DNA of 45,334 bases, taken from the IMG/VR virus record IMGVR_UViG_2663763534_000006. One strand, written 5' to 3'. This stretch comes from a virus (lineage: Duplodnaviria > Heunggongvirae > Uroviricota > Caudoviricetes). The position numbers and the translations under genes are program-made. Below, in pieces: positions 3,019 to 10,240 of this stretch (positions are counted from its first letter, which is position 1; every line of letters begins with the position of its first letter). The notes beneath the pieces were generated by a model. That model was given only the letters and a program-made list of their open reading frames with translations, was not told the origin of the DNA and made no database searches.

Positions 3019-3689
3019 TGCTCTCCAAATACAAAACCAATTTCAGCCAGTGCTTCGTCCATTTTTTCGATGAACTCCGGCACCATCTCGTCAAAACTCG
3101 CCATGTACTTTTCATCCCGCTCAACCACGACATAATGCAGGCCTTCACGCTTCATTCGTGGGTCATAGTTGGCAAAGTACCAGGCATCTTTTCGTGTCAC
3201 CCACATGCTGTACTGCACCTGGGCCATGTAAGCCGACTTTATGGCCTCGAAACCACCGAGCCGGAACTTCATGAAATCCCGGGAGGTAAACGGGCATTTC
3301 AGCTCAAGGCCATTGCCGTCACTGCATAAACCATCGGGAGAGCAGGCGGTGCGCATACTTTCGTCGCGATAGATGATCGGGGATTCAGTAACATTCACGC
3401 CGGAAGTGAATTCAAACAGGGTTCTGGCGTCGTTCTCGTACTGTTTTCCCCACGCCAGCGCCTTAGCATTAACTTCCGGAGCCACACCGGTGCAAACCTC
3501 AGCCAGCAGGGTGTGGAAGTAGGACATTTTCATGTCAGGCCACTTCTTTCCTGAGCGGGGCTTTGCTATCACGTTGTGAACTTCTGAAGCGGTGATGACG
3601 CCGAGCCGTAATTTGTGCCATGCATCATCCCCCTGTTCGACAGCTCTCACGTCGATCCCGGTACGCTGCAGGATAATGTCCGGTGTCAT
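3009..3689 (-). CDS. exo: Lambda exonuclease (Red alpha)
   Basis: 226-aa translation starting [38 protein letters not shown] matches lambda Exo essentially along its length; 4-nt overlap with bet. Confidence 0.95.
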
Positions 3690-4471
3690 GCTGCCACCTT
3701 CTGCTCAGTGGCTTTCTGTTTCAGGAATCCAAGAGCTTTCACTGCTTCGGCCTGTGTCAGTTCTGACGATGCGCGAATGTCGCGGCGAAATATCTGGGAA
3801 CAGAGCGGCAATAAGTCGTCATCCCATGTTTTGTCCAGGGCAATCAGCAGAGTGTTAATCTCCTGCATGGTTTCATCGTTAACCGGAGTGATGTCGCGTT
3901 CCGGCTGACGTTCTGCAGTGTATGCGGTATTTTCGACAATGCGCTCGGCTTCATCCTTGTCATAGATACCAGCAAATCCGAAGGCCAGACGGGCACACTG
4001 AATCATGGCTTTATGCCGTAACATCCGTTTGGGATGCGACTGCCACGGCCCCGTGATTTCTCTGCCTTCGCGGGTTTTGAATGGTTCGCGGCGGCATTCA
4101 TCCATCCACTCGGTAACGCAGATCGGATGATTGCGGTCTTTGCGGTAAATCCGGCATGTACATGATTCATTGTCCTGCTCAAAGTCCATACCATCAAACT
4201 GCTGGTTTTCATTGATGATGCGGGACCAGCCATCAACGCCCACCACCGGAACAATGCCGTTCTGCTTATCAGGGAAGGCGTAAATTTCTTTCGTCCACGG
4301 ATTAAGGCCGTACTGGTTGGCGACGATCAACAATGCGATGAACTGCGCATCGCTGGCATCACCTTTAAATGCCGTCTGGCGAAGAGTGGTGATCAGTTCC
4401 TGTGGGTCGACAGAATCCATGCCGACACGTTCAGCCAGCTTCCCTGCCAGCGTTGCGAGTGCTGTACTCAT
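3686..4471 (-). CDS. bet: Red beta single-strand annealing protein
   Basis: 261-aa translation starting [38 protein letters not shown] matches lambda Bet. Confidence 0.95.
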
Positions 4472-4476
4472 CCGTT

Positions 4477-4773
4477 TTATACCTCTGAATCAATATCAGC
4501 CTGATGGTGAGCAATGGTTTCAACTATGTACCGGATGTGTTCTGCCATGCGCTCCTGAAACTCAACATCGTCATCAAACGCACGGGTAATGGCTTTTTTG
4601 CTGGCCCCGTGGCGTTGTAAATGATCGATGCATAGCGATTCAAACAGGTGCTGGGGCAGGCCTTTTTCCATGTCGTCTGCCAGTTCTGCCTCTTTCTCTT
4701 CACGGGCGATCTGCTGGTAGTGACGCGCCCAGCTCTGAGCCTCAAGACGATCCTGAATGTAATAAGCGTTCAT
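4477..4773 (-). CDS. gam: Gam, RecBCD inhibitor (short form)
   Basis: 98-aa translation [56 protein letters not shown] matches the GamS portion of lambda Gam; an in-frame stop with no ATG upstream excludes the long form. Confidence 0.85.
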
Positions 4774-4848
4774 GGCTGAACTCCTGAAAATGGCTGTGAA
4801 AATATCGCCCGCGAAATGCCAGGCTGATTAGGAAAACAGGAAAGGGGG

Positions 4849-4992
4849 TTAGTGAATGCTTTTGCTTGATCTCAGTTTCAGTATTAATATCCATTTTTTA
4901 TAAGCGTCGACGGCCTCACGAAACATCTTTTCATCGCCAATAAAAGTGGCGATAGTGAATTTAGTCTGGATAGCCATAATTGTTTGATCCAT
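4849..4992 (-). CDS. kil: Kil (host killing / FtsZ inhibitor)
   Basis: 47-aa internal-Met [50 protein letters not shown], with the size and position of lambda kil, overlapping the cIII 3' end as in lambda. Confidence 0.7.
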
Positions 4993-5125
4993 TTTTTGGG
5001 ACTCCTGGCTGATTAAGTATGTCGATAAGGCGTTTCCATCCGTCACGTAATTTACGGGTGATTCGTTCAAGTAAAGATTCGGAAGGGCAGCCAGCAACAG
5101 GCCACCCTGCAATGGCATATTGCAT
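4961..5125 (-). CDS. cIII: CIII (FtsH inhibitor, lysogeny regulator)
   Basis: 54-codon ORF (below the ORF-track cutoff) read from the reverse strand: MQYAIAGWP...YGYPD, with a TAA stop at 4961-4963; matches lambda cIII. Confidence 0.8.
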   Translation of the reverse strand: MQYAIAGWPVAGCPSESLLERITRKLRDGWKRLIDILNQPGVPKNGSNNYGYPD

Positions 5126-5197
5126 GGTGTGCTCCTTATTTATACATAACGAAAAACGCCTCGAGTGAAGCGTAATTGGTATGCGGTAACGCCGCGC

Positions 5198-5566
5198 TCA
5201 GGCGGCCTTGATAGTCATATCATCTGAATCAAATATTCCTGATGTATCGATATCGGTAATTCTTATTCCTTCACTACCATCCATTGGAGGCCATCCTTCC
5301 TGACCATTTCCATCATTCCAGTCGAACTCACACACAACACCATATGCATTTAAGTCGCTTGAAATTGCTATAAGCAGAGCATGTTGCGCCAGCATGATTA
5401 ATACAGCATTTAATACAGAGCCGTGTTTATTGAGTCGGTATTCAGAGTCTGACCAGAAATTATTAATCTGGTGAAGTTTTTCCTCTGTCATTACGTCATG
5501 GTCAATTTCAATTTCTATTGATGCTTTCCAGTCGTAATCAATGATGTATTTTTTGATGTTTGACAT
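5198..5566 (-). CDS. ea10: Ea10-like early protein
   Basis: 122-aa ORF with the size and position of lambda ea10; identity by recall. Confidence 0.7.
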   Translation of the reverse strand: MSNIKKYIIDYDWKASIEIEIDHDVMTEEKLHQINNFWSDSEYRLNKHGSVLNAVLIMLAQHALLIAISSDLNAYGVVCEFDWNDGNGQEGWPPMDGSEGIRITDIDTSGIFDSDDMTIKAA

Positions 5567-5583
5567 CTATTCATATCCTCATA

Positions 5584-5612
5584 GATAAAAAATCGCCCTC
5601 ACACTGGAGGGC
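5584..5612 (-). terminator. Intrinsic terminator candidate in the leftward operon
   Basis: Hairpin GCCCTCacactgGAGGGC followed on the minus strand by a T-run (plus-strand AAAAAAT at 5586-5592), between ral and ea10. Confidence 0.35.
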
Positions 5613-5748
5613 AAAGAAGATTTCCAATAATCAGAACAAGTCGGCTCCTGTTTAGTTACGAGCGACATTGCTCCGTGTATTCACTCGTTGGAATGAATAC
5701 ACAGTGCAGTGTTTATTCTGTTATTTATGCCAAAAATAAAGGCCACTA

Positions 5749-6162: not shown

Positions 6163-6744
6163 ATGAACAACTCATGGTGGCAGGAACTAATGCATTTTTT
6201 CCTGCAAGGAATGACACTTAAACAGTTGATTCATATGCTAATCATCCTGATCATATTGATTATTGTTATGCCGGTAAGCGTAAAAGAATGGATAAACCTG
6301 CATAATCCAGAAATCCTTCCTCATTACTGGATGTATTACATCCTGTTGTTTTGCGTTAGCTATGTGCTTAACGGCGTTGTTAATTCCGCTTATCACGCTG
6401 TGACTGAAAGAATTGAGGTATTCGCTGCTCAGAAGCGCAAATCTAAAGAAGAAAAATATGTGCAAGATTTGTTTGATTCGTTAACTCTTGGAGAAAGAGC
6501 GTATTTGGCATTCGCTGTAGCCGCTAATAACCAGCTACAAACGGAAAAGGGCGCTCATGAATCAATTTCATTGCTCAAAAAAGGACTCCTCGTTCGAAGG
6601 CCTCCTGCTGTTGGATATCCTGATACCGACCGTTTCGTTATCCCTGAAAGCTATAGACATGAGTGCTACATTAGGTTTGCCGGGAAGGCAGACAGCCTTA
6701 TGGATGAACTTATCGCTCAGGATAAGCATGGCAAAAACAAGTAA
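6163..6744 (+). CDS. sieB: Superinfection exclusion protein B
   Basis: 193-aa ORF on the opposite strand to the pL operon, with an N-terminal hydrophobic segment (LIHMLIILIILIIVMPV); resembles lambda/Rac SieB by recall. Confidence 0.8.
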   Translation: MNNSWWQELMHFFLQGMTLKQLIHMLIILIILIIVMPVSVKEWINLHNPEILPHYWMYYILLFCVSYVLNGVVNSAYHAVTERIEVFAAQKRKSKEEKYVQDLFDSLTLGERAYLAFAVAANNQLQTEKGAHESISLLKKGLLVRRPPAVGYPDTDRFVIPESYRHECYIRFAGKADSLMDELIAQDKHGKNK

Positions 6745-6760
6745 TTAGCAAATGAATTTA

Positions 6761-7033
6761 TCATCTCGCCGTCAGTTGTTTTGATTTCCGGTAGCCTGCC
6801 GCGTAAAGAGCTACGTTCGGAAGACAAGTTGAACCTTCATATTTTCTGGTCAACGTTGTCAGAGTTATCACTTCTGCTCTCATTGCTGGTTTGAGCTTGC
6901 ATTGCAAGACCACTCGTGAAGGGGTTGGCCTGTGTAGCTTGTCGGAGCTGATCGCCTCCTGACTTTGCAGATTTGCGCGACGAGCTCTACGGCGAGAAGC
7001 TGCGGTGCCTTTAAATTCTGTTTTTCTGGACAT
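6761..7033 (-). CDS. N: N-like transcription antiterminator
   Basis: 90-aa ORF from an internal Met preceded by GGGAGGA; N-terminal arginine-rich motif (KGTAASRRRARRANLQ) as in N proteins; sits between the pL region and sieB/ral. Sequence is not lambda N. Confidence 0.6.
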   Translation of the reverse strand: MSRKTEFKGTAASRRRARRANLQSQEAISSDKLHRPTPSRVVLQCKLKPAMRAEVITLTTLTRKYEGSTCLPNVALYAAGYRKSKQLTAR

Positions 7034-7131
7034 GGATTCCTCCCGAATAAACTTTGGCGATGCAATCTCGAAGCTCCTCCTGAGACGGTTGCTTCGGCAT
7101 TGCATCCCACAGCTTATGTGGTTGGGTGATC

Positions 7132-7199: not shown

Positions 7200-7440
7200 T
7201 CCAGCGTCCTGCTGACGGTTAAATAGTACGATATGTACTTTACAAGATCAATACAATTTGTTGTAAGTTGGCGTGGTTTTTTATAACGCTTTGTATTTAA
7301 TAGTGTTGTTTTTTAGCGTGGATGTATTGCCTCGGCGATGTAAGGAGAGATCAGAATTGCGTGGTTTAGTGGGTTGCATCTATTTATTTTTCAATAAATA
7401 TAATTGGTTATGTGTTTTTAGGTGGGCGAACGTGAGGCAA
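7200..7440 (-). promoter_or_regulatory. pL/OL region candidate
   Basis: Non-coding interval between N and the cI-linked cassette; contains the palindrome TACAAtttgTTGTA (7252-7265) sharing TTGTA/TACAA half-sites with the cI-cro intergenic region. Confidence 0.35.
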
Positions 7441-7464
7441 AGAAAACCCGGCGCTGAGGCCGGG
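7441..7464 (-). terminator. Intrinsic terminator ending the cI-linked operon
   Basis: Hairpin CCCGGCgctgagGCCGGG (7447-7464) followed on the minus strand by TTTTCTTT, immediately after the stop of the 250-aa ORF. Confidence 0.5.
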
Positions 7465-7469
7465 TTGTA

Positions 7470-8222
7470 TTATGCTGCAAGTCTCTTAACCCAAGTCTCT
7501 CTTTTGGAGAATGGTAGAACTTGGCTTGATTCATGGAAGAGTAAGGAGAGTTGTTGCATTTGATCACCAATTGCTTCGCTGTCTATAACAACAAATCTGT
7601 TGTTATACTCCTCACTTGAAGCTTTAAGATCAATTAGTTTCCCAAGCAATGAGTAAGCACTATTCCAGCTTCCTCCGTGTTTCACGCTTGATGTAAAAAC
7701 GTATTTAGGTATGTCGGTTTTTATTGTTACAGGGACGGTAATTTGATGTCCACTCAAGCCATATACGTTTTCACGAAGAGAAAGTGCGTCTCTAAGCTCT
7801 GTGTGATATAGATAATCAATAACCATACTTTCAAACTTTTCAGCTTGAACTGGCTGATACCAGTCTAACGACAAAGTTGATGCGAGTATACCAGCTCTAA
7901 TTATGTTCGATGTAATCGCACCGACATCCTTTTCTGTTGCCCAAGCAATGATTTCTCCTCGAGCATTGAGTTCTGCGCCTTCTTTAAGCAGTAATTGTCG
8001 TATCTCATCAAGTCGTTTTTTGGTAAGCGAGATCCCTCTTGCCTCCATATTCATTAAGGCATCGCATCTGTCACTAACTAAATACCTACCATTGACTTCA
8101 CGGATAAAGGCACCGACATGCTCTCCATCATCACAGTAAGTGAATGGACTGATAATTCTCAAGGTCTTGCCTATTGGATGGCATTCGAAACCTAGTTGTG
8201 AGATCACTGTTGAGCACATCAT
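7470..8222 (-). CDS. Hypothetical protein, distal gene of cI-linked two-gene cassette (rexB slot)
   Basis: 250-aa ORF, same strand as cI, 4-nt overlap with the upstream ORF; no TM segments or recognisable catalytic motifs; AT-rich relative to flanking lambda-like genes. Confidence 0.6.
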   Translation of the reverse strand: MMCSTVISQLGFECHPIGKTLRIISPFTYCDDGEHVGAFIREVNGRYLVSDRCDALMNMEARGISLTKKRLDEIRQLLLKEGAELNARGEIIAWATEKDVGAITSNIIRAGILASTLSLDWYQPVQAEKFESMVIDYLYHTELRDALSLRENVYGLSGHQITVPVTIKTDIPKYVFTSSVKHGGSWNSAYSLLGKLIDLKASSEEYNNRFVVIDSEAIGDQMQQLSLLFHESSQVLPFSKRETWVKRLAA

Positions 8223-8776
8223 ATTCCAAACCCCATTTGCCCCGACTCATCTTCAAGCGGTAAAGGTATTCTCCCAGAGTAAGTTATGTTCAGATGTTTA
8301 CAGAAGTAATTCCAATACCCTACCAGGTCATCTGGGTTTATGTCATCTTCGATTGGAAACGCTATTCTATCACTATAGTATCCAGCTTCTTCATAGTATA
8401 CATGGTAGTGAGCACCGTAAATGATATCTTGGTACTTCGGATGATCGACCTTGTAACTATTCGTGTGTTTGTCAAAGTGATAGGTATCTACCGCGAAAAC
8501 CCTCTTGTTATGATAGAAAGCAATAATATTTATTTTAGGGTAAGAAATCGGGTCATCAGGTTCTGAATCCTGATCTGGTTTCCATTTCAGTTCAAACTTT
8601 AGCCCTTGTATAGGTATACAATCCTCATCCAAGGGGATGATATGGGCTTGTAGCCACATATCAGAGCGACTTGGTTTCTGTTTCCATTTAACGCCAGAAA
8701 AGTTAACTATTTTTTTACAATAAAGTACTTTATCAACTTCTACTTGGCTTGGCTGATAATCATCTATTTTTGCCAA
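8219..8776 (-). CDS. Hypothetical protein, proximal gene of cI-linked two-gene cassette (rexA slot)
   Basis: 185-aa ORF starting 40 nt after the cI stop on the same strand; apparent TTG start; acidic/aromatic-rich; no recognisable family. Confidence 0.55.
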   Translation of the reverse strand: MAKIDDYQPSQVEVDKVLYCKKIVNFSGVKWKQKPSRSDMWLQAHIIPLDEDCIPIQGLKFELKWKPDQDSEPDDPISYPKINIIAFYHNKRVFAVDTYHFDKHTNSYKVDHPKYQDIIYGAHYHVYYEEAGYYSDRIAFPIEDDINPDDLVGYWNYFCKHLNITYSGRIPLPLEDESGQMGFGI

Positions 8777-8815
8777 TGTTTACCGCCCTGTAAATTGTAG
8801 ATAAAAGTGGTTTCA

Positions 8816-9475
8816 TCACCCAAACGTCTCTTCAGGCCATTGGCTGGCGATAACTTTCCCCACAACGGAACAACTCTCATTGCATGGGATCATTGGGTAT
8901 TGTGGGTTTAGTGGCTGTAGAAACACCTGACCGCTATCCCTGATCAGTTTCTTGAAGGTAAATTCATCACCACCAAGTCTGGCTATGCAGAAATCGCCGG
9001 GCTCAACAGCTTGCTCAGGGTCAACCAGAATTAACATCCCGTCAGGAAAGCTGGGTTTGGAACCTGTTGGTGCGGTCATTGAGTTACCTTCAACCTCAAG
9101 CCAGAATGCAGAGTCACTGGCTTTTTTGGTTGTGCTTACCAATCTCTCCGCATCGCCTTTGGTAAAGGTTCTGAGTTCTGGAGAGAACATCCCAGCCTGA
9201 ACATGAGAAAAAACAGGGTACTCATATTGTTTTTTAACTGGGGCCGATGAGTATTCGCCAACAGGTGAAAATGTCCCGTCGTGGTTGAATGATATGTTAT
9301 CAATACCAAGGTATTTAAACACCACACCAATATCACTAAGAGATGGATGACGAGATCCGCGCAACCAGTGTCCAATCCCACCCTGCGTCATACCTAGCTC
9401 TTCGGCTAACTTCTCTTGAGTTATGCCGAGCTCTTTCATTCTGGATCTAGCCAGTTCATACCATTTCATTTTCAT
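8816..9475 (-). CDS. cI: CI repressor (LexA-like S24 C-terminal domain)
   Basis: Start placed at the internal Met MKMKWYEL (9475) preceded by AAGGA. C-terminal part ([29 protein letters not shown]...[18 protein letters not shown]) matches lambda cI; N-terminal HTH domain ([23 protein letters not shown]) is different. Confidence 0.9.
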
Positions 9476-9586
9476 GTCCTTATTATTACGCTCTGTACTG
9501 GAACCATCCATGCACAATGTGTATTTTTACTTGTATTCGCAAAGTACATATTGTATTTTTTTATTCGTGTTTACTATGGAGGGCAT
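9476..9586. promoter_or_regulatory. OR operator / divergent pRM-pR region
   Basis: 111-bp cI-cro intergenic region, AT-rich, with repeated TTGTA/TACA half-sites (e.g. TACAtatTGTA at 9545-9555) resembling those in the OL candidate. Confidence 0.5.
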
Positions 9587-9943: not shown

Positions 9944-10240
9944 ATGGAAAGAACAAGTTACAGCAAACTATCACAGCGTGACGTTGATCGCGCAGAAACA
10001 GATTTACTTATCAATCTGTCAGCTATTACCCAGCGCGGTCTGGCAAAGATGATTGGCTGTCATGAATCGAAGATAAGCAGAACGGACTGGAGATTTATTG
10101 CTTCGGTCTTGTGTGCTTTCGGAATGGCATCAGACATCAGTCCGATTAGCAGGGCTTTTAAGTATGCGCTTGATGGACTCACCAATAAAAAACGCCCGGC
10201 GGCAACCGAGCGTTCTGAACAAATCCAGATGGAATTCTGA
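9944..10240 (+). CDS. cII: CII transcriptional activator (hybrid)
   Basis: 98-aa ORF; C-terminal LTNKKRPAATERSEQIQMEF matches lambda cII, N-terminal two-thirds differ. Confidence 0.8.
   Translation: MERTSYSKLSQRDVDRAETDLLINLSAITQRGLAKMIGCHESKISRTDWRFIASVLCAFGMASDISPISRAFKYALDGLTNKKRPAATERSEQIQMEF

What the first reader, a model, noticed from the sequence alone, without database searches (positions are those of the whole stretch)
7441..8815. Uncharacterised two-gene cassette in the rexAB slot of the immunity operon
Directly downstream of cI, on the same strand with only a 40-nt gap, lie two translationally coupled ORFs (8219..8776, 185 aa; 7470..8222, 250 aa; 4-nt overlap), followed immediately by an intrinsic terminator (7447..7464 hairpin plus T-run on the minus strand). 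This is where lambda carries rexA-rexB and where other lambdoid phages carry lysogen-expressed exclusion or abortive-infection genes. The two proteins do not resemble RexA/RexB in size or character (no RexB-like multi-TM profile) and I cannot place either in a known family. The cassette is AT-rich relative to the flanking lambda-like cI and N regions, which suggests horizontal acquisition. Co-expression with the repressor from pRM predicts a function acting in the lysogen, most plausibly anti-phage defence or exclusion, mechanism unknown.
Basis: partly seen in the sequence, partly recalled or inferred. Interest (0 to 1): 0.85.

Follow-up and report, generated by a model that had tools for sequence, protein, structure and literature searches.

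The report
Uncharacterised two-gene cargo behind prophage repressor
Two overlapping genes of unknown function sit just after the repressor gene of this lambda-like E. coli prophage, where phages keep genes that protect their host from other phages; the same pair follows many unrelated repressors in other bacteria, so it is a good but untested anti-phage defence candidate.

Summary
On the minus strand, cI (8816..9511) is followed after 39 nt by gene A (8219..8776, 185 aa, TTG start). Gene B (7470..8222, 250 aa) overlaps A by ATGA. A hairpin terminator follows (7445..7466), identical to the tM annotated in phage 933W.

Both genes are under strong purifying selection, encode soluble proteins and are unrelated to RexA/RexB. 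B is a DUF1828 protein with a chaperone-like N-domain. Its C-domain has a restriction-endonuclease-like fold but lacks the canonical D...(D/E)xK residues. A has a confidently predicted fold with no PDB match and an invariant His/Asp/Asn/Arg cluster.

The two proteins match the untested PADLOC candidate system PDC-M24: B clearly, A weakly.

A and B stay adjacent with the 4-nt overlap down to about 25% identity. In prophages of seven sampled genera, two viral contigs and a Pseudomonas phage they follow at least eight unrelated repressor types. Outside prophages they sit beside type III restriction-modification genes, a methyltransferase or a TIR gene.

The cI-to-tM slot carries other cargo in related phages, such as the stk kinase in 933W.

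Lysogen-expressed defence is the best reading. It is untested and the mechanism is unknown. This is a good candidate, not a surprise in kind.

The parts
8816..9511 (-). cI-type repressor (HTH_3 + Peptidase_S24), first gene of the operon. The ORF listing extends it to a TTG at 9517; RefSeq uses the ATG that gives 696 nt.
   Evidence: Pfam HTH_3 E 2e-10 and Peptidase_S24 E 1e-28. Annotated 'LexA family protein', 696 nt, in E. coli Nissle and 'cI' in PhiR57_1.
8777..8815 (-). 39-nt cI-to-A spacer, with a GGGCGG Shine-Dalgarno-like element upstream of the TTG start.
   Evidence: Sequence read directly. No terminator-like site in it. One weak promoter-like match (9 of 12) at 8794..8766, no better than the shuffled expectation.
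8219..8776 (-). Gene A: 185 aa, soluble, TTG start. The fold is orphan. Invariant residues are W31, R92, N106, H123, H125, F158 and P173; near-invariant are D97, H104, G121 and Q180. Distantly related to DUF6978 / PDC-M24A.
7470..8222 (-). Gene B: 250 aa, soluble. The ATG start overlaps A's stop (ATGA). The N-domain (about 1-121) is DUF1828 with a T3SS-chaperone/DUF2170-like fold. The C-domain (about 127-250) has a restriction-endonuclease-like (PD-(D/E)xK) fold without the canonical catalytic motif.
7437..7466 (-). Intrinsic terminator tM (hairpin 7466..7445 plus T-rich tail). It is the conserved right-hand boundary of the cargo slot.
   Evidence: Terminator scan. 98% identical to the annotated tM of 933W. 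The alignment with 933W and PhiR11_1 is conserved through the hairpin and diverges right after it on the cargo side.

Best explanation
A and B form an obligate two-protein module carried as exchangeable cargo in the maintenance (cI) operon of temperate phages. Most likely it acts in the lysogen as an anti-phage defence or exclusion system.

Proposed working, with the status of each step:
1. Transcription from the repressor promoter reads through cI, A and B and stops at tM. This is inferred from a 39-nt gap with no terminator, and from tM being annotated as the terminator of the pM transcript in 933W.
2. A is translated from a weak non-ATG start, and B is translationally coupled through the ATGA overlap, giving low, matched amounts. 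The sequence features are shown; the coupling is inferred.
3. The two soluble proteins form a cytoplasmic complex. This is inferred from strict co-occurrence and correlated divergence. Possibly A's conserved, poorly ordered C-terminal tail binds B's chaperone-like N-domain; that is speculation.
4. On superinfection, a phage product or phage DNA is sensed. The effector is then either B's restriction-endonuclease-like C-domain acting on nucleic acid, or A's conserved His/Asp/Asn/Arg cluster, a putative metal site, acting as an enzyme. Phage development is blocked directly or by abortive infection. This is inferred, and which protein is sensor and which is effector is unknown.
For: Module:
- In 59 metagenomic loci found through a motif of distant A homologues (about 25% identity), every locus with room has a B homologue directly downstream, as a rule with the 4-nt overlap.
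- A and B identities to the window pair rise and fall together.

Position:
- The pair lies downstream of the repressor, on the same strand, in every prophage or phage locus examined. In three of them one extra cargo gene lies between the repressor and A.
- These loci come from Salmonella, Aeromonas, Klebsiella, Izhakiella, Yersinia, Providencia, Xenorhabdus, Pantoea, Thorsellia, two IMG/VR contigs, E. coli O104:H4 and a Pseudomonas phage.
- The 15 repressors compared fall into at least eight groups and two architectures, with and without Peptidase_S24.

Slot:
- The same tM and flank bound different cargo in 933W (DUF3024/PDC-S43, L0083, stk kinase matching PD-T4-6, L0081) and in PhiR11_1.
- Lambda keeps rexAB in the corresponding position.

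Defence association outside prophages:
- The pair sits next to type III Mod+Res (L065), a similar N6_N4 methyltransferase (L037), a methyltransferase directly after B (L045), a TIR protein (L081) and ParE (L059).
- Both proteins match the PADLOC candidate PDC-M24.

Folds.

Real genes: purifying selection.
Against: - No experiment or transcript data exist for this pair. I found no paper that mentions it.
- PDC-M24 is only a computational candidate. The A match to it is weak (E 5e-4, C-terminal 60 residues). Only 3 of 23 family members match it or DUF6978.
- B's nuclease-like domain lacks an invariant D...(D/E)xK. The invariant polar residues are S157, H159 and D198, with an acidic residue at 214 and R209 in 28 of the 30 sequences aligned.
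- A has no structural relative that would indicate an activity.
- The largest metagenomic lineage (37 loci, about 65% GC) lies among housekeeping genes such as dapA, bamC and uvrB, not in an obvious defence island.
- My gene calls in those high-GC loci were crude.
Confidence: 0.55

Rival explanations
1. The pair is a toxin-antitoxin or addiction module that stabilises the prophage or island, with no primary role against phages.
For: - Two overlapping, strictly co-inherited genes.
- One metagenomic locus has a ParE toxin gene next to it.
- Its presence in chromosomal non-phage contexts is compatible with a selfish module.
Against: - Neither protein matches any toxin or antitoxin family in Pfam, NCBIfam or PADLOC.
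- There is no small DNA-binding antitoxin-like domain.
- The proteins are large for type II TA (185 and 250 aa).
- Many TA systems are themselves defence systems, so this rival overlaps with the main reading.
Confidence: 0.12
2. The pair is a restriction-like nuclease: B, helped by A, cuts DNA in a sequence- or modification-dependent way, with protection by a methyltransferase encoded elsewhere.
For: - Several non-prophage lineages have an N6_N4 methyltransferase next to the pair, in L045 directly after B.
- The prophage carries an N6-adenine methyltransferase in its nin region.
Against: - The canonical catalytic D...(D/E)xK is not conserved.
- No methyltransferase lies in the cI operon of any of the prophage loci.
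- From general knowledge of lambdoid phages, the nin-region methyltransferase would not be expressed in a lysogen.
- The methyltransferases in L065 and L037 look like type III Mod (in L065 with its own Res), that is, separate systems.
Confidence: 0.12
3. The pair is an accessory of lysogeny control. It would modulate repressor stability, induction or the lysis-lysogeny decision for the benefit of the phage.
For: In every prophage or phage locus examined it lies downstream of the repressor in the same orientation, whatever the repressor type.
Against: - The same pair, with the same overlap, occurs without any adjacent repressor, in chromosomal contexts and next to restriction-modification or TIR genes.
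- It follows both LexA-like cleavable repressors and short non-cleavable ones, which are inactivated by different routes.
- Closely related phages with the same cI carry other cargo instead, so it is dispensable for the switch.
Confidence: 0.1
4. The genes are cargo with a host-fitness role unrelated to phages, such as stress or metal handling. They would be carried in the repressor operon only because that operon is expressed in lysogens.
For: - A's conserved histidine cluster suggests metal binding.
- A bioRxiv proteomics study describes a DUF6978 protein of S. aureus in the same terms and reports that it responds to ciprofloxacin.
- The large high-GC lineage lies among housekeeping genes.
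Against: - B has a nuclease-like fold and a chaperone-like domain.
- The pair is associated with restriction-modification and TIR genes.
- The slot is known for exclusion genes.
Confidence: 0.08

Closest known systems
Lambda rexA-rexB (lysogen-expressed exclusion genes in the cI operon)
   Same: - Same genomic logic: two genes directly downstream of cI on the same strand, ending at a terminator just upstream of the pL/N region.
- Presumably expressed in the lysogen.
   Different: - No sequence relationship (hhalign probability below 1% in all four comparisons).
- Different sizes: 185 and 250 aa here, against 279 and 144 aa for RexA and RexB.
- No membrane protein here, whereas RexB is a multi-pass membrane protein.
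- The Rex mechanism of membrane depolarisation therefore cannot be transferred.
PADLOC-DB v2 candidate system PDC-M24 (PDC-M24A + PDC-M24B), corresponding to DUF6978 + DUF1828 proteins
   Same: - Two adjacent genes in the same order.
- B matches PDC-M24B over its full length (E 5e-10) and passes Pfam DUF1828.
- A matches the C-terminal third of PDC-M24A and of DUF6978, including the HxH region.
   Different: - The A family here is a narrow sister clade: 32 clusters at 50% identity in 1.84 billion proteins.
- It mostly fails the PDC-M24A and DUF6978 models (3 of 23 members, best E about 2e-6).
- From my knowledge of PADLOC's naming, PDC systems are untested candidates. No paper in the library mentions PDC-M24.
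933W cI-operon cargo (L0084/DUF3024, L0083, stk, L0081)
   Same: - It occupies the same slot, bounded by cI and the same tM terminator.
- stk matches the defence kinase family PD-T4-6.
- From memory, stk was shown to exclude phage HK97.
- The DUF3024 gene also sits between cI and the A-B pair in Izhakiella and Providencia prophages.
   Different: Unrelated proteins. The kinase-based mechanism does not apply here.
PD-(D/E)xK nuclease effectors with N-terminal sensor domains (for example Can2/Card1 and restriction endonucleases of the NgoMIV/PspGI group)
   Different: - The N-domain is chaperone-like (DUF2170 / T3SS chaperone fold), not CARF.
- The catalytic D...(D/E)xK is not conserved.
- A second obligatory protein, A, is present.

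Membership tests
RexAB | Homology to RexA and RexB | tested here: not met
   hhalign of the A and B family alignments against lambda RexA and RexB gives probabilities of 0.07-0.19%.
RexAB | One partner is a multi-pass inner-membrane protein (RexB) | tested here: not met
   Maximum 19-residue hydropathy is 0.45 (A) and 1.19 (B), against 3.03 for SieB in the same window.
RexAB | Location directly downstream of cI in the maintenance operon | tested here: met
   39-nt gap, same strand, terminator after the second gene. Compare the lambda layout.
PADLOC candidate PDC-M24 | A protein matching a PDC-M24B model | tested here: met
   PDLC04540 E 4.7e-10, residues 2-249 on profile positions 4-254 of 256.
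PADLOC candidate PDC-M24 | An adjacent protein matching a PDC-M24A model | tested here: inconclusive
   PDLC04536 E 4.8e-4, residues 104-163 only. Only 3 of 23 family members match a PDC-M24A model, best E 1.5e-6.
PADLOC candidate PDC-M24 | Demonstrated anti-phage activity | not testable with these tools
   No paper in the library mentions PDC-M24. An experiment is needed.
Pfam DUF1828 (PF08861) | Score above the gathering threshold | tested here: met
   33.5 bits against a cut-off of 22, residues 26-110 of B. RefSeq also names it a DUF1828 domain-containing protein.
Pfam DUF6978 (PF22398) | Score above the gathering threshold | tested here: not met
   22.0 bits against a cut-off of 29.6, C-terminal 60 residues of A only. 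3 of 23 relatives match, best E 2e-6.
PD-(D/E)xK nuclease superfamily (B, C-domain) | Restriction-endonuclease-like alpha-beta-beta-beta-alpha-beta core fold | tested here: met
PD-(D/E)xK nuclease superfamily (B, C-domain) | Conserved catalytic D ... (D/E)xK residues on strands 2 and 3 | tested here: not met
   Across 30 diverse B homologues there is no invariant Lys or Glu in the C-domain. The invariant polar residues are S157, H159 and D198. K173 and K200 vary. Activity through non-canonical residues cannot be excluded.
Type II toxin-antitoxin | Match to a known toxin or antitoxin family, or a small DNA-binding antitoxin | tested here: not met
   No such hit in Pfam, NCBIfam or PADLOC at E up to 1.
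Type II restriction-modification | Cognate methyltransferase adjacent and co-expressed | tested here: not met
   No methyltransferase between cI and tM in the window or in any of the prophage loci. One lies directly after B in one metagenomic lineage only (L045).

The most novel reading that the evidence does not exclude
The A-B pair is a mechanistically new two-protein immune system. A would be an orphan-fold, histidine-cluster metalloenzyme with no solved relative. It would be controlled by, or control, a protein that joins a secretion-chaperone-like sensor domain to a degenerate restriction-endonuclease fold. The system would be spread by temperate phages as a plug-in of the repressor operon, from Pseudomonas to Escherichia. 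It could account for part of the unexplained resistance of E. coli Nissle 1917 to lambda and Stx phages.
Probability: 0.3. Interest if true: 0.8.

Novelty: new member of a known kind. Interest (0 to 1): 0.55.

Why it matters
If the pair is a defence system, it is one that temperate phages install in well-known strains. These include the probiotic Nissle 1917, the uropathogen UTI89, the E. coli type strain, the O104:H4 outbreak lineage (a divergent copy) and many Salmonella. It would affect which other phages, Shiga-toxin phages among them, can infect or lysogenise these strains, and it would bear on phage therapy.

The repressor-to-tM slot is also a clean, easily searched place to mine further lysogen-expressed genes. 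PhiR11_1 holds another unknown pair there.

Protein A has no structural relative, so working out its activity could reveal new biochemistry.

The test is cheap. The phages (PhiR57_1, PhiR63_2, ev017, ev207) are in culture and plate on laboratory hosts.

Tried and rejected
- **RexAB homology:** rejected.
- **Known defence systems in PADLOC v2:** only the candidate PDC-M24 matched.
- **NCBIfam:** nothing meaningful.
- **PDB by sequence:** the only 'significant' hit is a designed Kelch propeller, SAKe6AC-LB (E 4e-6, and 1e-10 with the profile). It is the sum of five or six per-repeat matches, each with an individual E above 50, so it is an artefact. Hits for B were ankyrin designs and noise.
- **BFVD fold search for A:** one uncharacterised siphovirus protein.
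- **AFDB fold search:** the library was unavailable.
- **Loci of distant A homologues:** the alignment-based search failed because no stretch was conserved enough. Two of three single-protein scans of viral contigs found nothing. A degenerate DNA motif found nothing in viral contigs but 59 loci in metagenomes.
- **Representative-genome scan with the B alignment:** only 8 loci.
- **Literature:** no paper on PDC-M24. DUF1828 and DUF6978 appear only incidentally. Brenes & Laub 2025 (Cell Host Microbe) is, from memory, the likely source of the PhiR phages. It is the most likely place for an experimental test of this pair, but I could not read it.
- **The 'phage repressor pr' of Nissle (Bury et al. 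2018):** it turned out to be the cII homologue, not this operon. The supplement lists the pair only as hypothetical proteins EcN_1291 and EcN_1292, with no expression data.
Full report
**What is there.**
The window is a lambda-like prophage. Its first 25 kb are 100% identical to the temperate coliphage PhiR63_2, and its head and tail genes resemble phage 21.

On the minus strand the order is as follows.
- Divergent cro, then the cI repressor (8816..9511; HTH_3 + Peptidase_S24).
- A 39-nt spacer.
- Gene A (8219..8776, 185 aa, TTG start).
- Gene B (7470..8222, 250 aa), whose ATG overlaps A's stop in ATGA.
- A G+C-rich hairpin with a T-rich tail (7466..7445).
- Further left come N (6761..7105) and a SieB-family gene on the other strand (6163..6744).

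The hairpin and its flank are 98% identical to the feature annotated 'tM; putative terminator for pM transcript' in phage 933W.

The cassette has 39.6% G+C, against 48.9% for the window. That is in the lowest 1.2% of same-size windows.

**The genes are real and conserved.**
- The cassette is >=99% identical in 241 of 5426 complete E. coli genomes. 239 of them carry at least 80% of it, always in one copy on the chromosome. They include Nissle 1917, UTI89 and the type strain ATCC 11775.
- It is also present in phages ev017, ev207, PhiR57_1, PhiR63_2 and an Stx1a phage.
- Homologues at 47-84% (B) and 37-71% (A) identity occur in Salmonella, Klebsiella, Yersinia, Providencia, Xenorhabdus, Aeromonas and others.
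- Non-synonymous differences per site are 0.09-0.20, while synonymous sites are near saturation at 0.61-0.88.
- Both proteins are acidic and soluble, with no membrane segment.
- All eight A homologues examined start with GTG or TTG, followed by Ala-Lys in seven of the eight (Gly-Lys in Aeromonas). B always starts at the overlapping ATG.

**What the proteins look like: B.**
B passes Pfam's threshold for DUF1828 over residues 26-110. The AlphaFold2 model has mean pLDDT 84 and two domains.

Across 30 diverse homologues:
- Invariant C-domain residues are W121, F130, V134, G155, S157, G158, H159, W186, G194, D198 and W244.
- There is an acidic residue at 214, and R209 in 28 of 30.
- The canonical D...(D/E)xK is absent.
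- The N-domain keeps G11, P26, D32 and D51.

**What the proteins look like: A.**

Its family is small: 32 clusters at 50% identity in 1.84 billion proteins. Invariant residues are W31, R92, N106, H123, H125, F158 and P173. D97, H104, G121 and Q180 are nearly invariant. This pattern suggests a metal or catalytic site.

**Relation to known families.**
- Neither protein resembles RexA or RexB.
- In PADLOC-DB v2, B matches PDC-M24B over its full length (E 5e-10). A matches PDC-M24A weakly (E 5e-4, last third only).
- A's match to Pfam DUF6978 is below threshold. Only 3 of 23 relatives match either model.
- The pair is therefore best described as a divergent sister of an untested computational defence candidate.
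- No other defence, toxin-antitoxin or NCBIfam model matches.
- The searchable literature holds nothing on the pair.

**Gene neighbourhood: the pair stays together.**
A degenerate DNA motif from distant A homologues (about 25% identity to the window protein) found 59 metagenomic loci. In every one with room, a B homologue follows directly, as a rule with the same 4-nt overlap. Larger apparent overlaps come from my first-start ORF calls.

**Gene neighbourhood: in prophages the pair follows the repressor.**
This holds on the same strand in all of the following.
- Salmonella Gifsy-2-like prophages at pncB, with a 128-131 aa HTH-only repressor.
- Aeromonas caviae, with two different HTH+S24 repressors.
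- Klebsiella, with an HTH-only repressor.
- Izhakiella, Yersinia, Providencia, Xenorhabdus, Pantoea, Thorsellia and two IMG/VR contigs. Pfam counted eight Peptidase_S24 proteins among the scanned neighbours, which I assign to the eight upstream ORFs of these loci.
- A Rac-like prophage of E. coli O104:H4.
- A D3-like Pseudomonas phage, where the A homologue is not annotated.

In three of these loci one extra cargo gene lies between the repressor and A: DUF3024 in Izhakiella and Providencia, and a 216-aa hypothetical in the Pseudomonas phage.

The 15 repressors compared fall into at least eight groups. Repressor and cargo similarity are uncoupled:
- The Salmonella repressor is unrelated to the window's, while A is 70% and B 84% identical.
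- The O104:H4 repressor is 71% identical, while A is 40% and B 51% identical.

**Gene neighbourhood: the slot is a cargo hotspot.**
933W and PhiR11_1 share the tM hairpin and the N-side flank. Between cI and tM they carry other genes:
- In 933W: a DUF3024 protein (PADLOC PDC-S43), L0083, the stk kinase (which matches PD-T4-6) and L0081.
- In PhiR11_1: two unknown proteins.

The DUF3024 gene also sits between cI and the A-B pair in Izhakiella and Providencia, so cargo stacks in this slot.

**Gene neighbourhood: outside prophages.**
The pair lies next to type III Mod and Res genes (L065), a similar methyltransferase (L037), a methyltransferase directly after B (L045), a TIR-domain protein (L081), ParE (L059) and phage packaging genes (L049).

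One abundant high-GC lineage, however, lies among housekeeping genes.

**Interpretation.**
The most economical reading is an obligate two-protein module, carried as exchangeable cargo of the maintenance operon and acting in the lysogen, most likely against other phages.

Shown:
- The anatomy, conservation and pairing.
- The recurrence behind unrelated repressors.
- The hotspot nature of the slot.
- The folds (as predictions).
- The association with restriction-modification and TIR genes in several lineages.

Inferred:
- Co-transcription with cI.
- Translational coupling.
- Complex formation.
- The defence function.
- Any assignment of sensor and effector.

I consider defence about 55% likely. 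The rivals are a plain addiction module, a restriction-like nuclease with a distant methyltransferase, an accessory of lysogeny control, and an unrelated host-fitness function. Each is less well supported, for the reasons given under the rivals.

**Link to Nissle 1917.**
Prophage 3 of Nissle, at icd, carries the identical cassette. The supplement of Bury et al. 2018 lists it as hypothetical proteins EcN_1291 and EcN_1292, absent from the comparison strains.

That paper attributes partial protection to a 'phage repressor' gene, EcN_1294, and postulates a further unidentified factor in prophage 3. The published primers place EcN_1294 on the cII homologue of this window (9944..10240), not on cI.

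The A-B pair and the SieB gene are obvious candidates for the missing factor, but this is only a lead.

**Novelty and score.**
The kind of thing is well known: lysogen-expressed cargo behind the repressor. A computational resource already lists a related pair as a defence candidate. A specialist would not be surprised by its existence.

What is open is the mechanism, and it involves a protein with no structural relative. The system is common in important strains and easy to test with phages already in culture.

I could not read Brenes & Laub 2025, which from memory is the likely source of the PhiR phages. It might already have tested this pair, and that lowers my confidence in novelty.

I rate interest at 0.55.

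Noticed in passing
window 9944..10240 (+): The 'phage repressor (pr)', EcN_1294, that Bury et al. 2018 cloned from E. coli Nissle and found to reduce lambda and Stx phage plating about 200-fold maps by its published primers to the cII homologue. It does not map to the cI repressor.
   Followed up: partly
window 6163..6744 (+): A SieB-family superinfection exclusion gene (Pfam SieB E 2.5e-22; phrog_1301) lies on the opposite strand next to N. It is a second likely exclusion gene of this prophage.
   Followed up: no
L086 (phage PhiR11_1) 3565..4945 (-): The same cI-to-tM slot holds a different pair of unknown genes (283 and 163 aa) with no Pfam or PADLOC match. This is another uncharacterised cargo pair.
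   Followed up: partly
L015 4044..4385, L017 4053..4394, L085 (933W L0084) 5299..5640: A 113-aa DUF3024 protein (PADLOC candidate PDC-S43) is the first cargo gene after cI in 933W. In Izhakiella and Providencia prophages it sits between cI and the A-B pair, so cargo genes stack in this slot.
   Followed up: partly
window 8774..8776 and homologous loci L001, L005, L009, L015-L017, L087: All eight A homologues examined start with GTG or TTG, never ATG, followed by Ala-Lys in seven of the eight (Gly-Lys in Aeromonas). This suggests deliberately weak translation of A.
   Followed up: partly
L089 (Pseudomonas phage VB_PaD_phPA-G, PP083311) 3420..4004 (+): An unannotated A homologue (hmmsearch E 1e-27) lies in a gap of the deposited annotation. 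It overlaps the B homologue by 4 nt and is downstream of the CI-like repressor and one extra gene.
   Followed up: yes
L087 (E. coli O104:H4 FDAARGOS_348) 4442..5748 (-): The outbreak-lineage strain carries a divergent copy of the pair (A 40%, B 51% identical) behind a cI that is 71% identical to the window's. 31 E. coli genomes gave only a 60-80% identity match, of which this is one.
   Followed up: partly
L022 (518-bp contig labelled Actinomadura rugatobispora): A 43% G+C fragment encodes an 82% identical enterobacterial-type B, plus the end of A, in an actinomycete assembly. It is probably contamination.
   Followed up: no
L026-L083 (37 metagenomic loci, about 65% G+C): One abundant high-GC lineage carries the pair (>=80% identical A proteins). 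In the representatives scanned it sits among housekeeping genes (dapA, bamC-like lipoprotein, Sua5/YciO), with no phage or defence genes recognised nearby. My gene calls there were crude.
   Followed up: partly
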